A stretch of 64,000 nt of DNA from an uncultured Acidobacteriota bacterium (GTDB lineage Bacteria; Acidobacteriota; UBA6911), in contig CAWHCF010000041.1 in NCBI GenBank assembly GCA_963827655.1, positions 167,918-231,917 of the forward strand, in the 5' to 3' direction. The position numbers and the translations under genes are program-made. The notes below the pieces were generated by a model. The model made no database searches, was not told where the DNA came from, and saw only the letters and a program-made list of their open reading frames with translations. Below are positions 9,133-58,600 of this stretch, in pieces (within the stretch, counting starts at the first letter, position 1; every line of letters begins with the position of its first letter).

Positions 9133-9561
9133 CTACAGAGCAAGATTTGTGGGTCGCTGAGCTTGATGTGGATGATGAGGACCGCGGTACACTTTCAACT
9201 TCCGCCTCATTGCACGACCCAGCTTCGTCTTGGGAAGCATTCCGCTCACGGCTTCCCGCACCAGTTTTTCCGGGTTCTTGGCCAGCAAATCCCCCGCAGC
9301 GATCTCGCGCAGGCCACCGGGAAACCCCGTATGACGGCGGTACATCTTTTCGGAGAGCTTCTTTCCCGTGAGCTTTACCTTCTCAGCGTTGATGACGATT
9401 ACGTGGTCACCCGTATCCAGAAAGGTCACATACGTGGGCTTATCCTTGCCGGTAAGCAAACGGGCCACTCGACTCGCAAGTCTCCCCAGCACTTTGCCCT
9501 CGGCATCCAACACATGCCAGTTACTCTGAATTTCACTCTTTCGAGGTACGTAGCTCTTCAT
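9133..9561 (-). CDS. rplM: 50S ribosomal protein L13
   Basis: [33 protein letters not shown] motifs. Confidence 0.97.
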
Positions 9562-9602
9562 ACAACGCCTAATTGCGTGACAACACTGAAAAACAATCCT
9601 TT

Positions 9603-9631
9603 AGGCTAGCCAACGAAGTAATAGCTGTCAA
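9603..9631 (-). promoter_or_regulatory. Sigma70-type promoter of the rplM operon
   Basis: Minus strand TTGACA-N17-TAGCCT, about 40 bp upstream of the rplM ATG. Confidence 0.6.
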
Positions 9632-9947
9632 GCACATTATCCCGCACGCCTGGCGCGTCGCGGACAGCCCACTATTCTTGAGTACAGGCCGGAGCTGAGG
9701 CTGCCGGGCTCGCGCGGCTGGACAGCGGCAATAAGTTACATCATCGCAATAATTTAAGTCAACGCGCACCTTTGCCGGTTCACCTCTGACCAATCGCCAT
9801 CAACCGTTCGCGACAATGTCCTTGACAAGGCGCTCCTCACTGGTATTAGATTCCGCGTCCCTCACAGAGATTGCCTTCCCTCAAAGATTGTCCCTCCCTC
9901 ACAAAATGCATACGGATTTTTGACTCGAAGCCGGATGTCCTGTCCTG

Positions 9948-11014: not shown

Positions 11015-11578
11015 ATGATCCGGGTAAACCTTCTGAAGGACCACGGGGCCGACGCCAAAAAGCCGGCAGCCGAACCGCGGGGCTCTCGCATGGGCCTGGC
11101 GCTGATGGCCTTCTTTATTCTGATTTTATCCGGGATGGGAACCTCGTGGTACTACCTGGAAAACCAGGTCAGGATTCTCAAGGAACAGCGCGACACACTC
11201 AGGACCGAGAATGAGCGCTTGCAGCAGTCGAGAAAACAGATCGATGAATTGGAAGAACTGAAACGCCTGCGTCAGAGCCGGATCGAAGTCATCGAGAAGC
11301 TAAGAGACACTCAAACCGGCCCTGTGCTGATTCTGAATCACGTGATCCGGAGCATGCCGCGCGACGCGGCTCTGTGGTTGACTGTACTCGATCAGAAGGC
11401 GGATCGAGTACAGATCAAAGGATACGCCATGCGCGGCGAATCGATTCCAGATTTCATGAGCAACCTGTCCCAATCGGGATATTTCACAACCGTTGATCTG
11501 GAGTTGATCGAAGTCGAAAAGAATGCCGCGCGGTTTTCTCTTGGATGCAGCACGCTGCGTAAGACTCCGTCGGAGTGA
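11015..11578 (+). CDS. pilN: Type IV pilus assembly protein PilN
   Basis: N-terminal MIRVNLL motif, one TM helix, coiled coil; follows pilM. Confidence 0.88.
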   Translation: MIRVNLLKDHGADAKKPAAEPRGSRMGLALMAFFILILSGMGTSWYYLENQVRILKEQRDTLRTENERLQQSRKQIDELEELKRLRQSRIEVIEKLRDTQTGPVLILNHVIRSMPRDAALWLTVLDQKADRVQIKGYAMRGESIPDFMSNLSQSGYFTTVDLELIEVEKNAARFSLGCSTLRKTPSE

Positions 11579-55318: not shown

Positions 55319-55727
55319 TCGGTTTCTCCTTTCTCGTACTGCACGCGTCCTGACATATCGAGACAAATTTAATCAGACTATAGGCGAAACAAGAAGCTTC
55401 TTTAGGCGGGAGGCCCCGTTGAGCTGAACTCTGATTTGGGGGATCGACGAAACAGCTTCTCGATAGCTGTAGGATTCTAAATCCTTCGGCGTTCCAGGCG
55501 AGTGATAGCCTCTAAGAGGAAAAACCCAATGAAATTCCACCCTAGACCGACCTATACATCAACAGCTCCTCAGCGCGAGTTCCTATTCGTGCCGCACGTC
55601 GGCCTTCTGGTCCGCGCGGTTCCCTTGCTGACCTAGGTATCCATAAATCTGTCGTACATTTTTAACCAATTGGCTCTGGCCTCTGTGCGCGGCGCTGCAT
55701 TAGAATCGTCTCCACAGAGCGCAAACC

Positions 55728-55808
55728 GTGAGCGACATCTTTATCAGCTACGCCAGGTCGGATCGTGGTCACGTCAGGGATCTTCATCAGCTACCGGCGC
55801 CAGGATAG
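55728..55808 (+). pseudogene. Remnant 5' end of a second TIR-domain gene
   Basis: GTG-SDIFISYARSDRGHVRDL, a typical TIR_2 start, out of frame with and overlapping the next TIR gene. Confidence 0.55.
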
Positions 55809-56604
55809 TGATGCTTATGCAGGACGGTTGTATGACCGGCTGAGCACTCACTTCGGCAAAGCACGGATATTCATGGATATTGACATGAATCTCGGCATCG
55901 ACTTTGTTGACGAAATTGAAGAAAGAGTGGCCTCTTGCGAGGTTTTGATCGCGGTGATCGGTCGCAACTGGCTGGAAGTCAAAGATGACGGGGGTCGCCG
56001 AAGACTGGATAATCCAAAGGACTGGGTCCGTCTCGAGATCGCGGCTGCCCTCGAACGGAACATTCCAGTCATACCGGCGCTGGTTGGCGATGCCAAAATG
56101 CCCGGCTCTTCAGATTTGCCAAGCGTGCTCTCAAATTTGACGCGGAGACAAGCGATTGAAATCAGTCACAGTCGATTCCATCCCGACGTGGACCGTTTGA
56201 TCCGTGGTCTGGAAAGAATCGTATCCTCCACCGGCACCACAATGGAGGTCCCCGAAGGCGTCTACGTCGACCCTGAAACGAAGTTGATGTGGACCATTGA
56301 GGACAACGGAGAAGACATCGACTGGTTCGAAGCAAACGAATACGCCAAGCAATTGAGGCTGGGTGGGTATTCCGATTGGCGGTTACCGACGATCGAAGAG
56401 CTGGAGCGACTCAATGATCCAAAGAGTGGAAACAGATTTGAGATCAGACAGCCATTCCAGCTAACTTCCGAAAAGATCTGGAGCTCGACGAGAGAACGCT
56501 CGCGGGCCTCTTACTTTATCTTCGGCCCCTACATCCTGGGAGATCCTGTCCCCATGGACCGCGCCGACGCACGTGCCTTGTGTGTGCGTCGTTCCGGAGA
56601 ATGA
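55765..56604 (+). CDS. TIR_2 domain plus Lcl/DUF1566 domain protein
   Basis: IFISYRRQDS--YAGRLYDRL, DWVRLEIAAAL (catalytic Glu); D--TKLMW, LGGYSDWRLPTIEEL, WSST, ALCVR. Confidence 0.85.
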   Translation: MVTSGIFISYRRQDSDAYAGRLYDRLSTHFGKARIFMDIDMNLGIDFVDEIEERVASCEVLIAVIGRNWLEVKDDGGRRRLDNPKDWVRLEIAAALERNIPVIPALVGDAKMPGSSDLPSVLSNLTRRQAIEISHSRFHPDVDRLIRGLERIVSSTGTTMEVPEGVYVDPETKLMWTIEDNGEDIDWFEANEYAKQLRLGGYSDWRLPTIEELERLNDPKSGNRFEIRQPFQLTSEKIWSSTRERSRASYFIFGPYILGDPVPMDRADARALCVRRSGE

Positions 56605-56711
56605 TGTCGACCAATGGGTCATTTGGTTATTGGGTGATTTCGAAAATGTTTTGAAGCAGGTAAAGCTTGCGTGAGCGAGGGATTCCTGGCATCACCGCTG
56701 TTTGAGATTTT

Positions 56712-57083
56712 TTGCACTCCACAATTCCCCTGAATCAGACCGCCATAGACACGCTTCGAGCGATTCCCAGGCGGCTGGACTCCAAGTATCTCTTTGCGGG
56801 AAAGACGCCTGACACGCCTTTCTACGACCTGAAACGGCAATTTGAGAACGCGGTCAAGAAGGCTGGCCTGGAGGGCGTGACCTTCCACGGTTGAGAACTC
56901 ATGCGGATCGCATCTCCCGATGGCGGGCGTGGATCTCAGGACGGTACAGGAGATCCTCCGGCACAAGTCAATCTTGATGACCCAGCGGTATTCCCACCTC
57001 TCGCCGGCTCACAAGAAATCGCTTTAGACGCCCTGGAAAAAGCCCTGTCTGGAGCTGTGGAAAAGTCCGAAAAACACGCCTGA
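56712..57083 (+). pseudogene. Tyrosine integrase C-terminal remnant pointing at the tRNA 3' end
   Basis: IPLN, GVTFH-LR, then in a shifted frame MAGVDLRTVQEILRHKSILMTQRYSHL; 5' part absent. Confidence 0.8.
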
Positions 57084-57259: not shown

Positions 57260-57322
57260 AATCAATCACTTAGAGGAATCGACAATTTGCAGAAATTGCC
57301 GATTGTGCATGAAATTGTGCAT
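57260..57322. promoter_or_regulatory. att-like accessory sites: IHF consensus and tandem arm-type repeats
   Basis: AATCAATCACTTA (57260-57272) fits WATCAANNNNTTR; ATTGTGCAT repeated at 57302-57310 and 57314-57322. Confidence 0.55.
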
Positions 57323-58347
57323 ACGGCATCGAATCCAGCTTCCGGGCAGCATCGAAAAGATCACCCTCGCTGACGATGTTGTACCGCTCAAAAACCGAGC
57401 GCGTTTTGTGACCAGTCATCTTCATCGCGACGGCCTCCGGGATCCCGGCGCGGACCAGATTCCGGACCGCAGTTCGGCGGAAGTCGTGTGGAATTTTCGC
57501 CGGAACACCGGCAGCCACACAGGCGGTCTTCCAGGAGCGGCGGAATTCCTTGATGGGCTTTCCGCGCCGATGAAACACCCAGGGGCAAATGATACCCCGC
57601 TTTCTCAGTAGCTCCAGCTTGATTCGTTGTTCCTCCAGGACTGCGCGCAGCTCCCGGGTAAATGGGAAATACCCTCGCCTCATCATTCTTGGTCGTACCG
57701 GGTTCCAGGCGCACAATCCCAGCAGCAAAATCAACCTGTGACCACTCGAGGAAGCGTACCTCGCTTCGGATCCGCCAGCCCGTGATGTAGGCGAAAGTTA
57801 CCATCGGCTGAACGTCCGGCGAGAGGCGCTTCCGGACTGCCTCGAACTGCTCCAGGTCGAAGAACCCTTTCCTGACGTTATTCTCTTTTAGCATTGGAAC
57901 GTGAGGCTTCGTCATGATCTTGCCGGCCTGGGCCGCCAAAGAGAAGGCCCGCTTGATCGCCGTAAGTTCCCGGTTGATCGTGCCGTTTGCAGCGCCTTCC
58001 TCCTGGCGCCGGACGACATATCTGCGGATATCCGCCGTTGTAATTGCCGAAGCGCGCGCTTCTCCGAAAAACGGCAGGATGTGTTTTTCAAATCTCGTCT
58101 CGACATCCTTGACCGATCGCCGGCCGTTAATCCTGTAGTCATTGATTTCATCCGCGGCCATCTCCGAGAACCTGATCTGGCCCATCCGGGGCGTAACTGG
58201 GATTCCCTTTGCAATGTCAGATTCCTTCAAGCTCAGGAGGCGCTTTGCCTCGGCCTGGCTTACACTGCCGGAGCTTTCCCGCATGTGGATCCCGTCCCGG
58301 TAATACGAAATCCACCAGGTGTTCCCTCTCTTATATGTGCTTCCCAT
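57270..58347 (-). CDS. Tyrosine recombinase/integrase, frameshift near 57665
   Basis: N-terminal arm-binding WWISYY, TINREL, TGWR--SE, TKN, PHDFRRTAVRNL, GHKTRSVFERY. Confidence 0.92.
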
Positions 58348-58414: not shown

Positions 58415-58600
58415 CTAACTCGCTTCCTTTGGGTGCTTGACCTTCGGAAGCACGATCAGCTTCCGCTTTTCGGCTTTCTCTACGTAATCTTCCAGAAGCT
58501 TCTGGGCAATCTGCTTCATCGTCTTGCCTTCCAGAACGCAGACTATCCTCAACCTCTGGTGTAACTCCGCCGGAATGTCCATCACAAATCGCTTTTTCAT
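58415..58600 (-). CDS. Small ribbon-helix-helix (CopG/ParG-like) DNA-binding protein
   Basis: KRFVMDIPAELHQRLRIVCVLEGKTMKQIAQKLLEDYV pattern; directly upstream of the integrase. Confidence 0.65.
   Translation of the reverse strand: MKKRFVMDIPAELHQRLRIVCVLEGKTMKQIAQKLLEDYVEKAEKRKLIVLPKVKHPKEAS

What the first reader, a model, noticed from the sequence alone, without database searches (positions are those of the whole stretch)
55765..56640. TIR-Lcl(DUF1566) gene that may be a remote DGR target
Seen: a TIR domain with catalytic Glu fused to a C-terminal Lcl/DUF1566 domain. The segment between WSST and ALCVR is rich in NNC codons, and the stop is followed by a short degenerate repeat GGTCATTTGGTTATTGGGTGATTT. 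Established: DUF1566 is a C-type-lectin-fold domain commonly diversified by diversity-generating retroelements, with the variable region at the extreme C-terminus derived from AAC-rich templates. Inference: a hypervariable receptor coupled to a TIR effector. No reverse transcriptase or template repeat is visible in this window, and NNC bias is partly expected at this GC content.
Basis: inference. Interest (0 to 1): 0.5.

Follow-up and report, generated by a model that had tools for sequence, protein, structure and literature searches.

The report
TIR-lectin sensor gene, orphaned DGR target
This gene joins a SARM1-like NAD-cleaving TIR domain to a lectin-fold sensor domain of the kind that retroelements hypermutate, but the genome's only such retroelement is a wreck on another contig, so this copy is most likely a frozen former target.

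Summary
Window 55765-56604 (+) encodes a 279-aa protein with a SARM1-like TIR domain (Glu91 aligns with SARM1 E642) and a C-terminal Lcl_C/DUF1566 domain.

The gene is one of five paralogous Lcl_C cassettes in the 8.18-Mb assembly. The other four are fused to TIR or nSTAND1. Among them the stretch before ...RALCVRRSGE* varies almost only at codon positions 1 and 2, with third positions homogenised (C13 vs C36a: VR 6/10/0 against framework 13/10/31, p=2e-5). That is a DGR-type NNC signature.

No template repeat exists in the assembly. I did find a fossil of a DGR-type reverse transcriptase on contig C36. It starts at the stop codon of one paralog, is frameshifted, and is truncated after about 93 residues.

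The window's own copy does not share the homogenised scaffold (differences 18/11/10). Its NNC excess is weak (15/28 vs 33%). It is a mosaic whose ancestral ATG now reads ACG.

Verdict: a known kind (DGR-diversified lectin sensors on TIR/STAND conflict proteins), here as an orphaned, probably frozen copy. "Remote DGR target" is partly supported, as history rather than current activity. Read-level variation could not be tested.

The parts
55701..55706 (+). TAGAAT, a -10-like hexamer in the conserved upstream block shared with the C13 paralog and its metagenome ortholog L128
   Evidence: Alignments. The consensus promoter scan did not call it, so the promoter role is inferred.
55728..55808 (+). 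Relic 5' end of a different (C13-type) TIR gene. GTG start and 13 codons (VSDIFISYARSDR) are homologous to the C13 paralog. It is out of frame with the main ORF and ends at TAG 55806-55808.
   Evidence: An Acidimicrobiia MAG carries the two gene types in tandem, so a deletion fusion is inferred.
55765..56604 (+). TIR-Lcl_C ORF, 279 aa. GTG 55765 is the only in-frame start. The ancestral ATG (MSGIFISY in homologues) reads ACG here.
55780..56196 (+). TIR domain (residues 6-144), SARM1-like
   Evidence: Pfam. phmmer against PDB, SARM1 TIR E=4.3e-5. Foldseek E=1.8e-9. VIA-align Z=18.8, rmsd 2.1, 138 aligned, 9hq0_A.
56035..56037 (+). Codon of Glu91, aligned with the SARM1 catalytic Glu
   Evidence: Invariant in 14 of 14 homologues.
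56260..56595 (+). Lcl_C/DUF1566 domain (residues 166-277)
   Evidence: Pfam. Model residues 151-277 against the Legionella Lcl C-terminal domain 8q4e_A: Z=10.6, rmsd 3.0, 115 aligned, 24% identity.
56491..56574 (+). VR-like patch (residues 243-270, RERSRASYFIFGPYILGDPVPMDRADAR). It diverges from the scaffold shared by the four sister cassettes.
   Evidence: The only similar patch found is in protein P0009.
56575..56597 (+). Adenine-free 23-mer tail GCCTTGTGTGTGCGTCGTTCCGG. It is identical in 4 of 5 paralogs and in 10 metagenome loci, and within 2 mismatches in MAGs of two other phyla.
56617..56640 (+). Post-stop degenerate repeat (GGTCATTT-like, three units)

Best explanation
The gene encodes a small cytoplasmic sensor-effector. 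The effector is a SARM1-like TIR domain, presumed to be an NADase with Glu91 as the catalytic residue. It is joined by a short linker to an Lcl_C (DUF1566, lectin-fold) domain whose C-terminal patch would bind a ligand.

By analogy with other TIR defence proteins, ligand binding would trigger TIR assembly and NAD+ cleavage (inferred, not shown).

The Lcl_C module is a portable cassette present five times in this planctomycete genome, on TIR-only and TIR-nSTAND1 proteins. The cassettes were once rewritten by a diversity-generating retroelement located on contig C36. That element is now dead. Its reverse transcriptase is frameshifted and cut off after about 93 residues. No template repeat or accessory gene is left. 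The cassette beside it sits exactly where the template should be, as expected if the variable and template repeats recombined and deleted what lay between them.

The window's copy is a rearranged member of the family. It has a foreign TIR body placed behind the promoter and first 13 codons of a sister gene, and its ancestral ATG is lost. Its variable patch no longer matches the shared scaffold. It is therefore best read as an orphaned, frozen former target, possibly itself decaying, and not as an actively hypermutated receptor.
For: Domains, fold and Glu91.

Five cassettes.

DGR-type signature among the sister cassettes (codon table):
- C13 vs C36a: framework of 68 codons differs at positions 1/2/3 in 13/10/31 codons. 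The patch of 29 codons differs in 6/10/0. The tail of 10 codons shows no difference. Fisher p=2e-5.
- With C36c added, p=1e-6. With all four, p=3e-6.

Ortholog L128 has flanks that are nearly identical, but its patch is changed at NNC codons.

The same scaffold occurs in verified DGR templates. My scanner found adenine-biased TR/VR pairs (fraction 0.85-1.0) in 5 of 54 viral Lcl_C loci, reading TGG AAC GTC AAC TTC AAC AAC GGC.

RT fossil:
- PADLOC 'RT', E=4.5e-5.
- BLASTP against RTs beside 4 of those 5 verified TRs gives 42-57% identity, E 8e-12 to 2e-8.
- The nearest database relatives are 334-375-aa PF00078 proteins.
- tblastn of P0122 maps residues 1-58 (74% identity) to C36:27403-27230 and residues 51-93 to another frame. 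No further piece is found anywhere in the genome.
- P0122 is 40-45% identical over about 270 aa to all 5 verified DGR RTs.

In 5 of 5 verified DGRs the TR ends within 5 nt of the RT start. Here the C36b cassette ends at the RT's ATG.

This copy's divergence: against C13 the patch differs at 18/11/10 of 28 codons (p=0.10). Mosaic structure.

DGR targets with nSTAND1, TIR and lectin-fold domains, trans targets and degenerate loci are described in PMC10907252 (passages read). DUF1566 as a DGR target class and remote targets are in PMC5758913 (passages read).
Against: - No template repeat was found, so adenine-specificity is inferred from codon-position patterns and from homologous templates, not seen directly.
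- The assembly is 90.3% complete in 53 contigs. A live DGR on an unbinned plasmid or phage, or in a gap, cannot be excluded.
- The C36b cassette is not adenine-rich at the variable sites, so the 'variable x template recombination' step rests on position alone. In a same-class genome with a verified DGR the template lies downstream of the RT, so the other gene order is possible.
- The window copy's patch scaffold recurs in one unrelated metagenome protein (P0009). That suggests a distinct conserved type rather than decay, and it could have had its own template.
- The ORF is intact over 279 codons and Glu91 is kept, so the protein may still work.
- Frameshifts in the sister genes could be assembly errors.
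- NADase activity and any defence role are untested. No partner genes were recognised nearby.
Confidence: 0.6

Rival explanations
1. The gene is a live remote DGR target. A working RT, Avd and template lie in the unassembled tenth of the genome or on a mobile element, and they rewrite 56491-56574 in trans.
For: - NNC excess of 15/28.
- The copy has the same adenine-free tail and the same kind of post-stop flank as the sister cassettes.
- Remote targets are documented (PMC5758913 and PMC10907252, passages read).
- The genome is only 90% complete.
- DGR-type RTs occur in 3 of 120 other sampled genomes of the class.
Against: - There is no sixth copy of the repeat by blastn or by an nhmmer profile.
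- The only DGR-type RT is a stump.
- The patch differs from the sister scaffold at 10 of 28 third positions, so the sisters' template could not serve it.
- P0010, from another assembly, shows the same patch residues as far as its frame holds.
- None of the 80 genome loci and 10 metagenome loci of relatives holds a P0122-like RT at E<1e-8 in the DNA held, and none of the 80 genome loci holds an adenine-biased repeat pair.
Confidence: 0.12
2. This copy was never a DGR target. It is an ordinary diverged Lcl_C domain acquired by horizontal transfer with its TIR. The NNC excess is GC-driven codon bias, and the shared tail and flank reflect common descent of the cassette.
For: - The NNC excess is only nominally significant (p about 0.03-0.04).
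- The patch lacks the conserved Trp and Gly of the scaffold.
- The Pfam match stops at profile position 91 of 117.
- The closest full-length relatives are in Acidimicrobiia MAGs.
- GTCATT arrays are common genome-wide (65 arrays).
Against: - When placed in register, the patch reads NNC-TTY-NNC-TTC-GNC-NNC like the scaffold (re-read by eye).
- The tail 23-mer is identical at synonymous sites to copies that show the DGR signature.
- Homologues with the same TIR type carry canonical hypervariable-looking patches.
Confidence: 0.2
3. The position-1/2-only variation among the sister cassettes comes from gene conversion plus strong diversifying selection, without any retroelement.
For: Paralogs lying close together on C36 could convert one another, and homogenised third positions are what conversion gives.
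Against: - Conversion would also homogenise the variable codons.
- All four bases occur at the same first and second positions while the third stays C.
- These positions coincide with AAC codons of verified templates of the same domain.
- A DGR-type RT fossil abuts one cassette.
Confidence: 0.05

Closest known systems
DGR-diversified putative antigen sensors of conflict systems: STAND (nSTAND1/NACHT), TIR or peptidase N-termini with a C-terminal lectin-fold VR (PMC10907252; framework in PMC7159879)
   Same: The architecture logic is the same: effector or NTPase at the N-terminus and a lectin-fold variable domain at the extreme C-terminus. Several targets occur per genome, with trans targets and degenerate loci. 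nSTAND1-Lcl_C and TIR-Lcl_C paralogs are found here.
   Different: - The variable domain here is Lcl_C/DUF1566, not the FGE-sulfatase type stressed in those papers.
- The window's gene is a minimal TIR-lectin fusion with no NTPase.
- The DGR is dead: an RT stump and no template.
- No paper in the library holds both 'DUF1566' and 'TIR domain' (one search).
DUF1566/DUF823/Fib_succ_major class of DGR targets (category 'd', CLec2 VRs; Legionella LdtA) in PMC5758913
   Same: Same Pfam family for the variable domain, with the VR at the C-terminus. The fold matches the Legionella Lcl C-terminal domain (Z=10.6). Verified viral relatives have TR/VR pairs.
   Different: Those targets are mostly surface lipoproteins or adhesin-like proteins. 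This one has no signal peptide or membrane helix in the model and carries an N-terminal TIR, so it is presumably cytoplasmic.
SARM1 TIR domain (NAD+ hydrolase)
   Same: It is the best sequence and fold match. The motif KDWV.xE is shared, with Glu91 aligned to E642.
   Different: Identity is 24-27%. There are no ARM or SAM domains. Enzymatic activity is untested here.
Thoeris ThsB-type TIR proteins
   Same: Partial profile matches (PADLOC ThsB E=4.2e-7; NCBIfam ThcB4 34.9 bits) and fold similarity to ThsB (Z=11.7).
   Different: Scores are far below the family cut-off (34.9 vs 220 bits). No ThsA-like partner was recognised among 24 neighbouring ORFs or 12 downstream ORFs.

Membership tests
TIR domain, SARM1-like NADase | TIR fold | tested here: met
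   Pfam TIR_2 53.9 bits vs cut-off 28. VIA-align Z=18.8, rmsd 2.1, 138 aligned to the SARM1 TIR.
TIR domain, SARM1-like NADase | Catalytic glutamate in the W-x-x-x-E position | tested here: met
   Glu91 aligns with the SARM1 Glu. Invariant in 14 of 14 homologues.
TIR domain, SARM1-like NADase | NAD+ cleavage activity | not testable with these tools
   Needs an enzyme assay.
Lcl_C / DUF1566 (lectin-fold) domain | Profile match over the curated cut-off | tested here: met
   55.8 bits vs 34.9, but only profile positions 2-91 of 117. The sister cassettes match 2-117.
Lcl_C / DUF1566 (lectin-fold) domain | Fold like the solved Lcl C-terminal domain | tested here: met
   8q4e_A Z=10.6, rmsd 3.0, 115 aligned. 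Model pLDDT is 68-78 in the last 30 residues.
DGR variable protein (current target) | Cognate template repeat differing from the VR almost only at template adenines | tested here: not met
   blastn and an nhmmer profile find only the five gene-terminal copies in the 8.18-Mb assembly. The assembly is 90% complete.
DGR variable protein (current target) | Intact DGR-type reverse transcriptase in the genome | tested here: not met
   The two RVT_1 hits are group II intron RTs. The one DGR-type RT is frameshifted and truncated after about 93 residues.
DGR variable protein (current target) | Differences from sister VRs confined to codon positions 1 and 2, with non-adenine sites homogenised | tested here: not met
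   This copy against C13: 18/11/10 of 28 codons. The feature is met among the four sister cassettes (6/10/0, p=2e-5).
DGR variable protein (current target) | Within-population variation at the VR | tested here: inconclusive
   Only 151-197-nt contigs from four soil runs could be laid, and none covers 56490-56604.
DGR variable protein (current target) | VR at the extreme C-terminus of a lectin-fold domain, on the W-x-F-x-F-x-x-G ... ALCVR scaffold seen in verified VRs | tested here: inconclusive
   The position and the ALCVRR tail are met. Trp and Gly of the scaffold are replaced (Ser, Tyr) in this copy.
Thoeris ThsB | Family-level profile score and a ThsA partner nearby | tested here: not met
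   NCBIfam ThcB4 34.9 bits vs cut-off 220. No partner among the neighbouring ORFs scanned.

The most novel reading that the evidence does not exclude
The Lcl_C cassette carries a portable DGR 'landing pad'. It consists of an adenine-free 23-mer at the end of the ORF plus a post-stop array of GGTCATTT units lying just outside the template homology. This pad is conserved at the DNA level across Planctomycetota, Acidimicrobiia and Acidobacteriota MAGs and soil metagenomes. If so, any gene that acquires the cassette becomes a trans target of whichever compatible DGR is present in the cell, including one borne by a plasmid or phage. Genomes such as this one would then hold 'orphan' receptors that can be re-armed by an incoming element. 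The C36 locus would also show how such elements die, by recombination between the variable and template repeats.
Probability: 0.2. Interest if true: 0.65.

Novelty: new member of a known kind. Interest (0 to 1): 0.42.

Why it matters
DGR-diversified lectin sensors fused to TIR or STAND domains are proposed to be bacterial antigen receptors. This genome offers a natural 'after' state of such a system:
- five sensor cassettes on different effector chassis;
- a dated wreck of the retroelement;
- one minimal TIR-lectin fusion, which would be an easy construct for testing whether ligand binding by an Lcl_C domain switches on a SARM1-like NADase.

The DNA-level conservation of the cassette's tail and flank across phyla gives a concrete candidate for the cis element that marks a gene as a DGR target.

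Tried and rejected
- Template search. blastn of 56350-56660 and an nhmmer profile of the five cassette ends against the whole assembly found only the five gene ends.
- Close relatives. There was no DNA match in 60 related genomes. A phylum scan of 400 other genomes with the 23-mer (up to 2 mismatches) hit only one, G276. G276 has two secreted or membrane-anchored Lcl_C proteins. One of its two RVT_1 hits carries a group II maturase-like tail by my reading, and neither locus holds a template-like match to its VRs.
- Local DGRs beside relatives. None of the 80 genome-contig loci holds an adenine-biased repeat pair within 10 kb. The 10 metagenome loci hold no extra, template-like copy of the repeat outside gene ends. 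The two 23-mer matches in L126 are two tandem Lcl_C domains of one protein, not a VR and TR.
- Acidimicrobiia MAGs carrying the closest homologues. Their RVT_1 loci show no match to the VRs. Whole-genome DNA searches with their VRs found only a tandem paralog.
- Viral contigs. There were 0 exact 23-mer hits.
- Read-level variation. No run holds half of the stretch's words. The four best runs gave only 151-197-nt contigs, with none over 56490-56604. Nothing can be said either way about polymorphism or habitat.
- Search for more proteins with this copy's patch type (region 222-279). Only the protein itself and P0010 were found.
- C36b as the template. It was rejected because about 8 of 22 of its differences from C13 lie at its adenines (my count by eye on the table).
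- The 221 nt upstream of the RT in G432 had no second copy. That element's template lies downstream of the RT.
- Consensus promoter and terminator scan of 55400-56900. It gave 1 promoter-like site inside the ORF and 0 terminators, no better than shuffles.
- Earlier findings of this scan. Nothing fitted the look-up.
Full report
**1. What is in the window**

Window 55765-56604 (+) is a 279-codon ORF.
- Pfam finds TIR_2 at residues 6-144 (E=3.3e-14) and Lcl_C/DUF1566 at residues 166-250 (E=6.9e-15). The Lcl_C match covers only profile positions 2-91 of 117.
- PADLOC and NCBIfam give only partial ThsB/ThcB4-like TIR matches, far under family cut-offs.
- An AlphaFold2 model built on 14 homologues (mean pLDDT 85.1) has two domains joined by a short low-confidence linker and no membrane helix.
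- Residues 3-152 superpose on the SARM1 TIR domain (Z=18.8, rmsd 2.1, 138 aligned). Residues 151-277 superpose on the Legionella Lcl C-terminal domain (8q4e_A, Z=10.6, rmsd 3.0, 115 aligned) (Foldseek).
- By sequence the best solved relatives are SARM1 TIR domains (E=4.3e-5). Glu91 aligns with the Glu of SARM1 'KDWVHKE', which is E642 by the numbering and the title of 7cm7. Glu91 is invariant in 14 of 14 homologues.

NNC codons are 15 of 28 between WSST and ALCVR, against 83 of 251 in the rest of the gene (p=0.038) and 34% in eight neighbouring genes (p=0.029).

**2. The gene is a mosaic**

Thirty-seven bases upstream of the ORF's GTG lies another GTG (55728). It is followed, in a different frame, by codons for SDIFISYARSDR, a second TIR N-terminal motif.
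- Aligned with two paralogs, the upstream block (including TAGAAT at 55701-55706) and these 13 codons are homologous to the TIR-Lcl_C gene on contig C13.
- The TIR body is unrelated to C13's. Homology resumes at the Lcl_C domain.
- The TIR body is closest to genes in Acidimicrobiia MAGs (62-78% identity).
- One of those MAGs carries a C13-type TIR-TM-Lcl_C gene followed 37 nt later by a gene of this window's type. A deletion between such a tandem pair would give what is seen here. This step is an inference.
- The ATG that starts the homologues (MSGIFISY) reads ACG here. GTG 55765 is the only in-frame start.

The organism is a planctomycete by its PSCyt/PSD1/DUF1501 genes. The gene sits between a carotenoid-oxygenase gene and a split integrase, near the contig end.

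**3. Five cassettes, and a DGR-type signature in four of them**

The last ~300 nt of the gene have four other copies in the 8.18-Mb, 53-contig, 90.3%-complete assembly.

| Copy | Position | Host gene | State |
|---|---|---|---|
| C13 | C13:73634-74020 | TIR-Lcl_C | TIR and Lcl_C lie in different frames |
| C36a | C36:15193-16575 | nSTAND1-Lcl_C | N-terminally incomplete |
| C36b | C36:27406-28953 | nSTAND1-Lcl_C | a TIR plus nSTAND1 start lies in a separate upstream ORF |
| C36c | C36:26384-26707 | TIR-Lcl_C | frameshifted |

All copies end ...RALCV(R/H)RSGE*.

A codon table of the alignment shows a sharp switch in how the copies differ.
- In the framework the copies differ mostly at third positions.
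- From about 30 codons before the tail they differ only at first and second positions of particular codons. All four bases occur at these sites while the third base stays C. The scaffold reads TGG NNC TTC NNC TTC GNC NNC GGC AAG CGC ... CGC GCC TTG TGT.

| Comparison | Framework, 68 codons (pos 1/2/3) | Patch (pos 1/2/3) | Tail, 10 codons | Fisher p |
|---|---|---|---|---|
| C13 vs C36a | 13/10/31 | 6/10/0 of 29 codons | no differences | 2e-5 |
| three copies (C36c added) | 18/11/39 | 9/11/0 of 28 codons | no differences | 1e-6 |
| four copies (C36b added) | 25/20/48 | 12/14/1 of 27 codons | 1 codon (position 2) | 3e-6 |
| this window's copy vs C13 | 14/8/18 | 18/11/10 of 28 codons | no differences | 0.10 |

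Third positions that are homogenised while first and second positions are scrambled is what repeated overwriting from one adenine-rich template produces. Ordinary divergence or gene conversion does not give this pattern.

A metagenome ortholog of the C13 gene (L128) has flanks that are nearly identical, yet its patch is changed at the same kind of codons.

**4. The scaffold is that of verified DGR templates**

My repeat scanner reports pairs in which at least 70% of the mismatches fall on A of one copy.
- It found nothing in 80 loci of cellular relatives.
- It flagged 7 of 54 viral Lcl_C loci. Two of those are self-palindromes. Five (L145, L154, L157, L167, L177) have one template and two or three variable repeats, with 85-100% of mismatches at template adenines.
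- Their templates read, for example, TGG AAC GTC AAC TTC AAC AAC GGC AAT ... GCC TGT GTG CGT. The AAC codons fall where the cassettes here vary.

This serves as a positive control for the scanner, and it shows the patch is the DGR-addressed part of this domain family. DUF1566 as a DGR target class (14% of 372 DGRs) and remote targets (45 DGRs with 73 non-adjacent targets) are in PMC5758913 (passages read).

**5. No template, but an RT fossil**

PF00078 hits the assembly twice. One hit carries a group II maturase domain. The other is a 158-aa fragment 78% identical to it.

A PADLOC scan of ORFs around the C36 cassettes gave a weak 'RT' match (E=4.5e-5) for C36:26725-27381 (-), immediately downstream of C36b.
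- Residues 27-87 of this ORF align at 42-57% identity (E 8e-12 to 2e-8) with the RTs beside 4 of the 5 verified viral templates. The shared motif is KPxPSxxFIxxxPKxREIxAxDFxDRVVxHxxVxxLExLWE.
- Its best database relatives are 334-375-aa PF00078 proteins.
- The best of these, P0122, contains IGNYTSQ and YVDD. That IGxxxSQ marks DGR RTs is my recollection, not a tool result.
- P0122 is 40-45% identical over about 270 residues to all five verified DGR RTs (E 1e-52 to 1e-65), against 25-31% (one short 71-residue stretch, 37%) to the RTs of the other genomes.
- tblastn of P0122 on the genome maps residues 1-58 (74% identity, MVSLFSFEN...) to C36:27403-27230 and residues 51-93 to another frame. After that the reading frame runs into an unrelated MutS-domain-I-like stretch (Pfam E=7e-5). 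No other piece exists anywhere in the assembly.

The RT is therefore a frameshifted stump lacking motifs 3-7.

Its ATG shares the A of C36b's TGA stop. In all five verified DGRs the template ends within 5 nt of the RT start. The C36b cassette thus occupies the template's slot. It is also the only copy whose post-stop sequence differs from the others. I infer that the variable repeat of C36b recombined with the template and deleted the spacer with any accessory gene. C36b is not adenine-rich at the variable sites, so this step rests on geometry alone. A same-class genome has a verified DGR with the template downstream of the RT (L203: 15 mismatches, 93% at template A), so the alternative gene order cannot be excluded.

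**6. Where the window's copy stands**

- Against C13 its framework differs at 14/8/18 of 68 codons, but its patch differs at 18/11/10 of 28 codons (p=0.10).
- Read in register it still shows NNC-TTY-NNC-TTC-GNC-NNC, but the scaffold's Trp and Gly are replaced, and there are compensating one-codon indels (by eye).
- One metagenome protein (P0009, 66% identity) has the same unusual patch type, ASY.IFGP.IL.DPV..DRA.ARALCVRR. A word-based search with residues 222-279 found no others.
- P0010, the same locus from another assembly, has the same patch residues up to its own frameshift.
- The copy keeps the adenine-free tail and a GGTCATTT-type flank.

I read it as a former target of a related template, now frozen. 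I give about 0.12 to current trans diversification and about 0.2 to its never having been a target.

**7. The tail and the flank**

- The 23-mer GCCTTGTGTGTGCGTCGTTCCGG contains no adenine. It is exact in 4 of 5 cassettes here and in 10 metagenome loci. All of those are ends of TIR-, nSTAND1- or TIR-coiled-coil-Lcl_C genes, some with two or three tandem Lcl_C domains, plus two relics in which a TIR start is fused to the tail.
- With up to 2 mismatches it occurs in Acidimicrobiia and Acidobacteriaceae MAG loci and in 1 of 400 other planctomycete genomes sampled.
- Most of these are followed by TGATGTGGGT(C/G)ATTTGG....
- Judging from where C36b diverges, the flank lies just outside the template homology. 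It is a candidate target-side recognition element.
- However, 65 arrays of GTCATT-type heptamers, often in inverted pairs, occur elsewhere in this genome (0 for the reversed control). The flank may therefore be an unrelated genome-wide repeat.

**8. What could not be done**

- No public run holds most of the stretch. Contigs of the four best runs do not reach the patch.
- The contigs of P0122 and P0009 could not be fetched.
- No defence partner was recognised among 24 neighbouring ORFs (Pfam) or 12 downstream ORFs (PADLOC).
- Function as a ligand-triggered NADase is inferred from the domains and from PMC10907252 (passages read) and PMC7159879 (passages read).
- No paper in the library holds both 'DUF1566' and 'TIR domain' (one search).

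**9. Verdict**

It is a new member of a known kind and of moderate interest.

Noticed in passing
genome-wide (e.g. G000:C26:218974-219059, C49:159956-160039); in the window only 56617-56640 by the looser pattern: There are 65 arrays of three or more heptamers NN[TC]CATT ((GTCATTN)n), often as inverted pairs 40-120 nt apart in intergenic DNA. The reversed control pattern gives 0. This is an unexplained genome-specific repeat family that shares its core with the post-stop repeat of the Lcl_C genes.
   Followed up: partly
G000:C36:26725-27403 (L023:6725-7403, minus strand): A DGR-type reverse-transcriptase pseudogene. Its ATG overlaps the stop of an nSTAND1-Lcl_C gene, it has a frameshift near codon 50, and it is cut after about codon 93, where it is joined to a MutS-domain-I-like fragment that has no other copy in the genome.
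   Followed up: yes
window 57270-58347 (-): A tyrosine-integrase gene split over two overlapping frames. The N-terminal SAM-like and core pieces are in 57388-58347 and the catalytic C-terminal half is in 57270-57734. It is probably a pseudogene marking a mobile-element border just downstream of the TIR gene.
   Followed up: no
window 58415-58600 (-): A 61-aa ribbon-helix-helix, ParD-like antitoxin candidate (Pfam RHH_10 E=9e-5). No recognised toxin partner was found in the ORFs scanned.
   Followed up: no
G000:C22:191537-192801 and C49:4318-4791: A group II intron RT (RVT_1 plus GIIM) whose N-terminal part appears to lie in a different frame from the rest of the gene, and a 158-aa fragment 78% identical to it next to transposase-like ORFs.
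   Followed up: partly
L026:8800-10885 (Acidimicrobiia MAG): A tandem pair of TIR-Lcl_C genes of the two TIR types, the first with a membrane segment between TIR and Lcl_C. The next gene encodes another TIR-like or deoxyribosyltransferase-like N-terminus. The same cassette tail is present with 2 mismatches, which points to cross-phylum transfer.
   Followed up: partly
L125:655-765 and L131:3513-3623 (metagenome contigs): Relics in which a TIR start (RYDLFVSYASED) is joined directly to the last ~60 nt of the cassette (…DMDNPAVNRALCVRRSGE*). This suggests recurrent internal deletions in this gene family.
   Followed up: no
L126:1085-2902, L130 (metagenome contigs): Proteins with two or three tandem Lcl_C domains. 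Each domain ends with the same 23-mer and has a different NNC patch.
   Followed up: partly
L203:9559-11358 (G432, same class): An apparently live DGR in a related planctomycete. The variable repeat is at 9559-9684, the RT follows, and the template is at 11233-11358. There are 15 mismatches, 93% at template adenines, on an FGE-sulfatase-type scaffold.
   Followed up: partly
G000:C36:18360-25708 (L022:14360-17867, L023:4302-5708): Between the C36 cassettes lie a type III restriction-like helicase, an AriA/GajA-like ATPase fragment and a type III methyltransferase-like ORF. The dead DGR therefore sits in a defence-island-like stretch.
   Followed up: no
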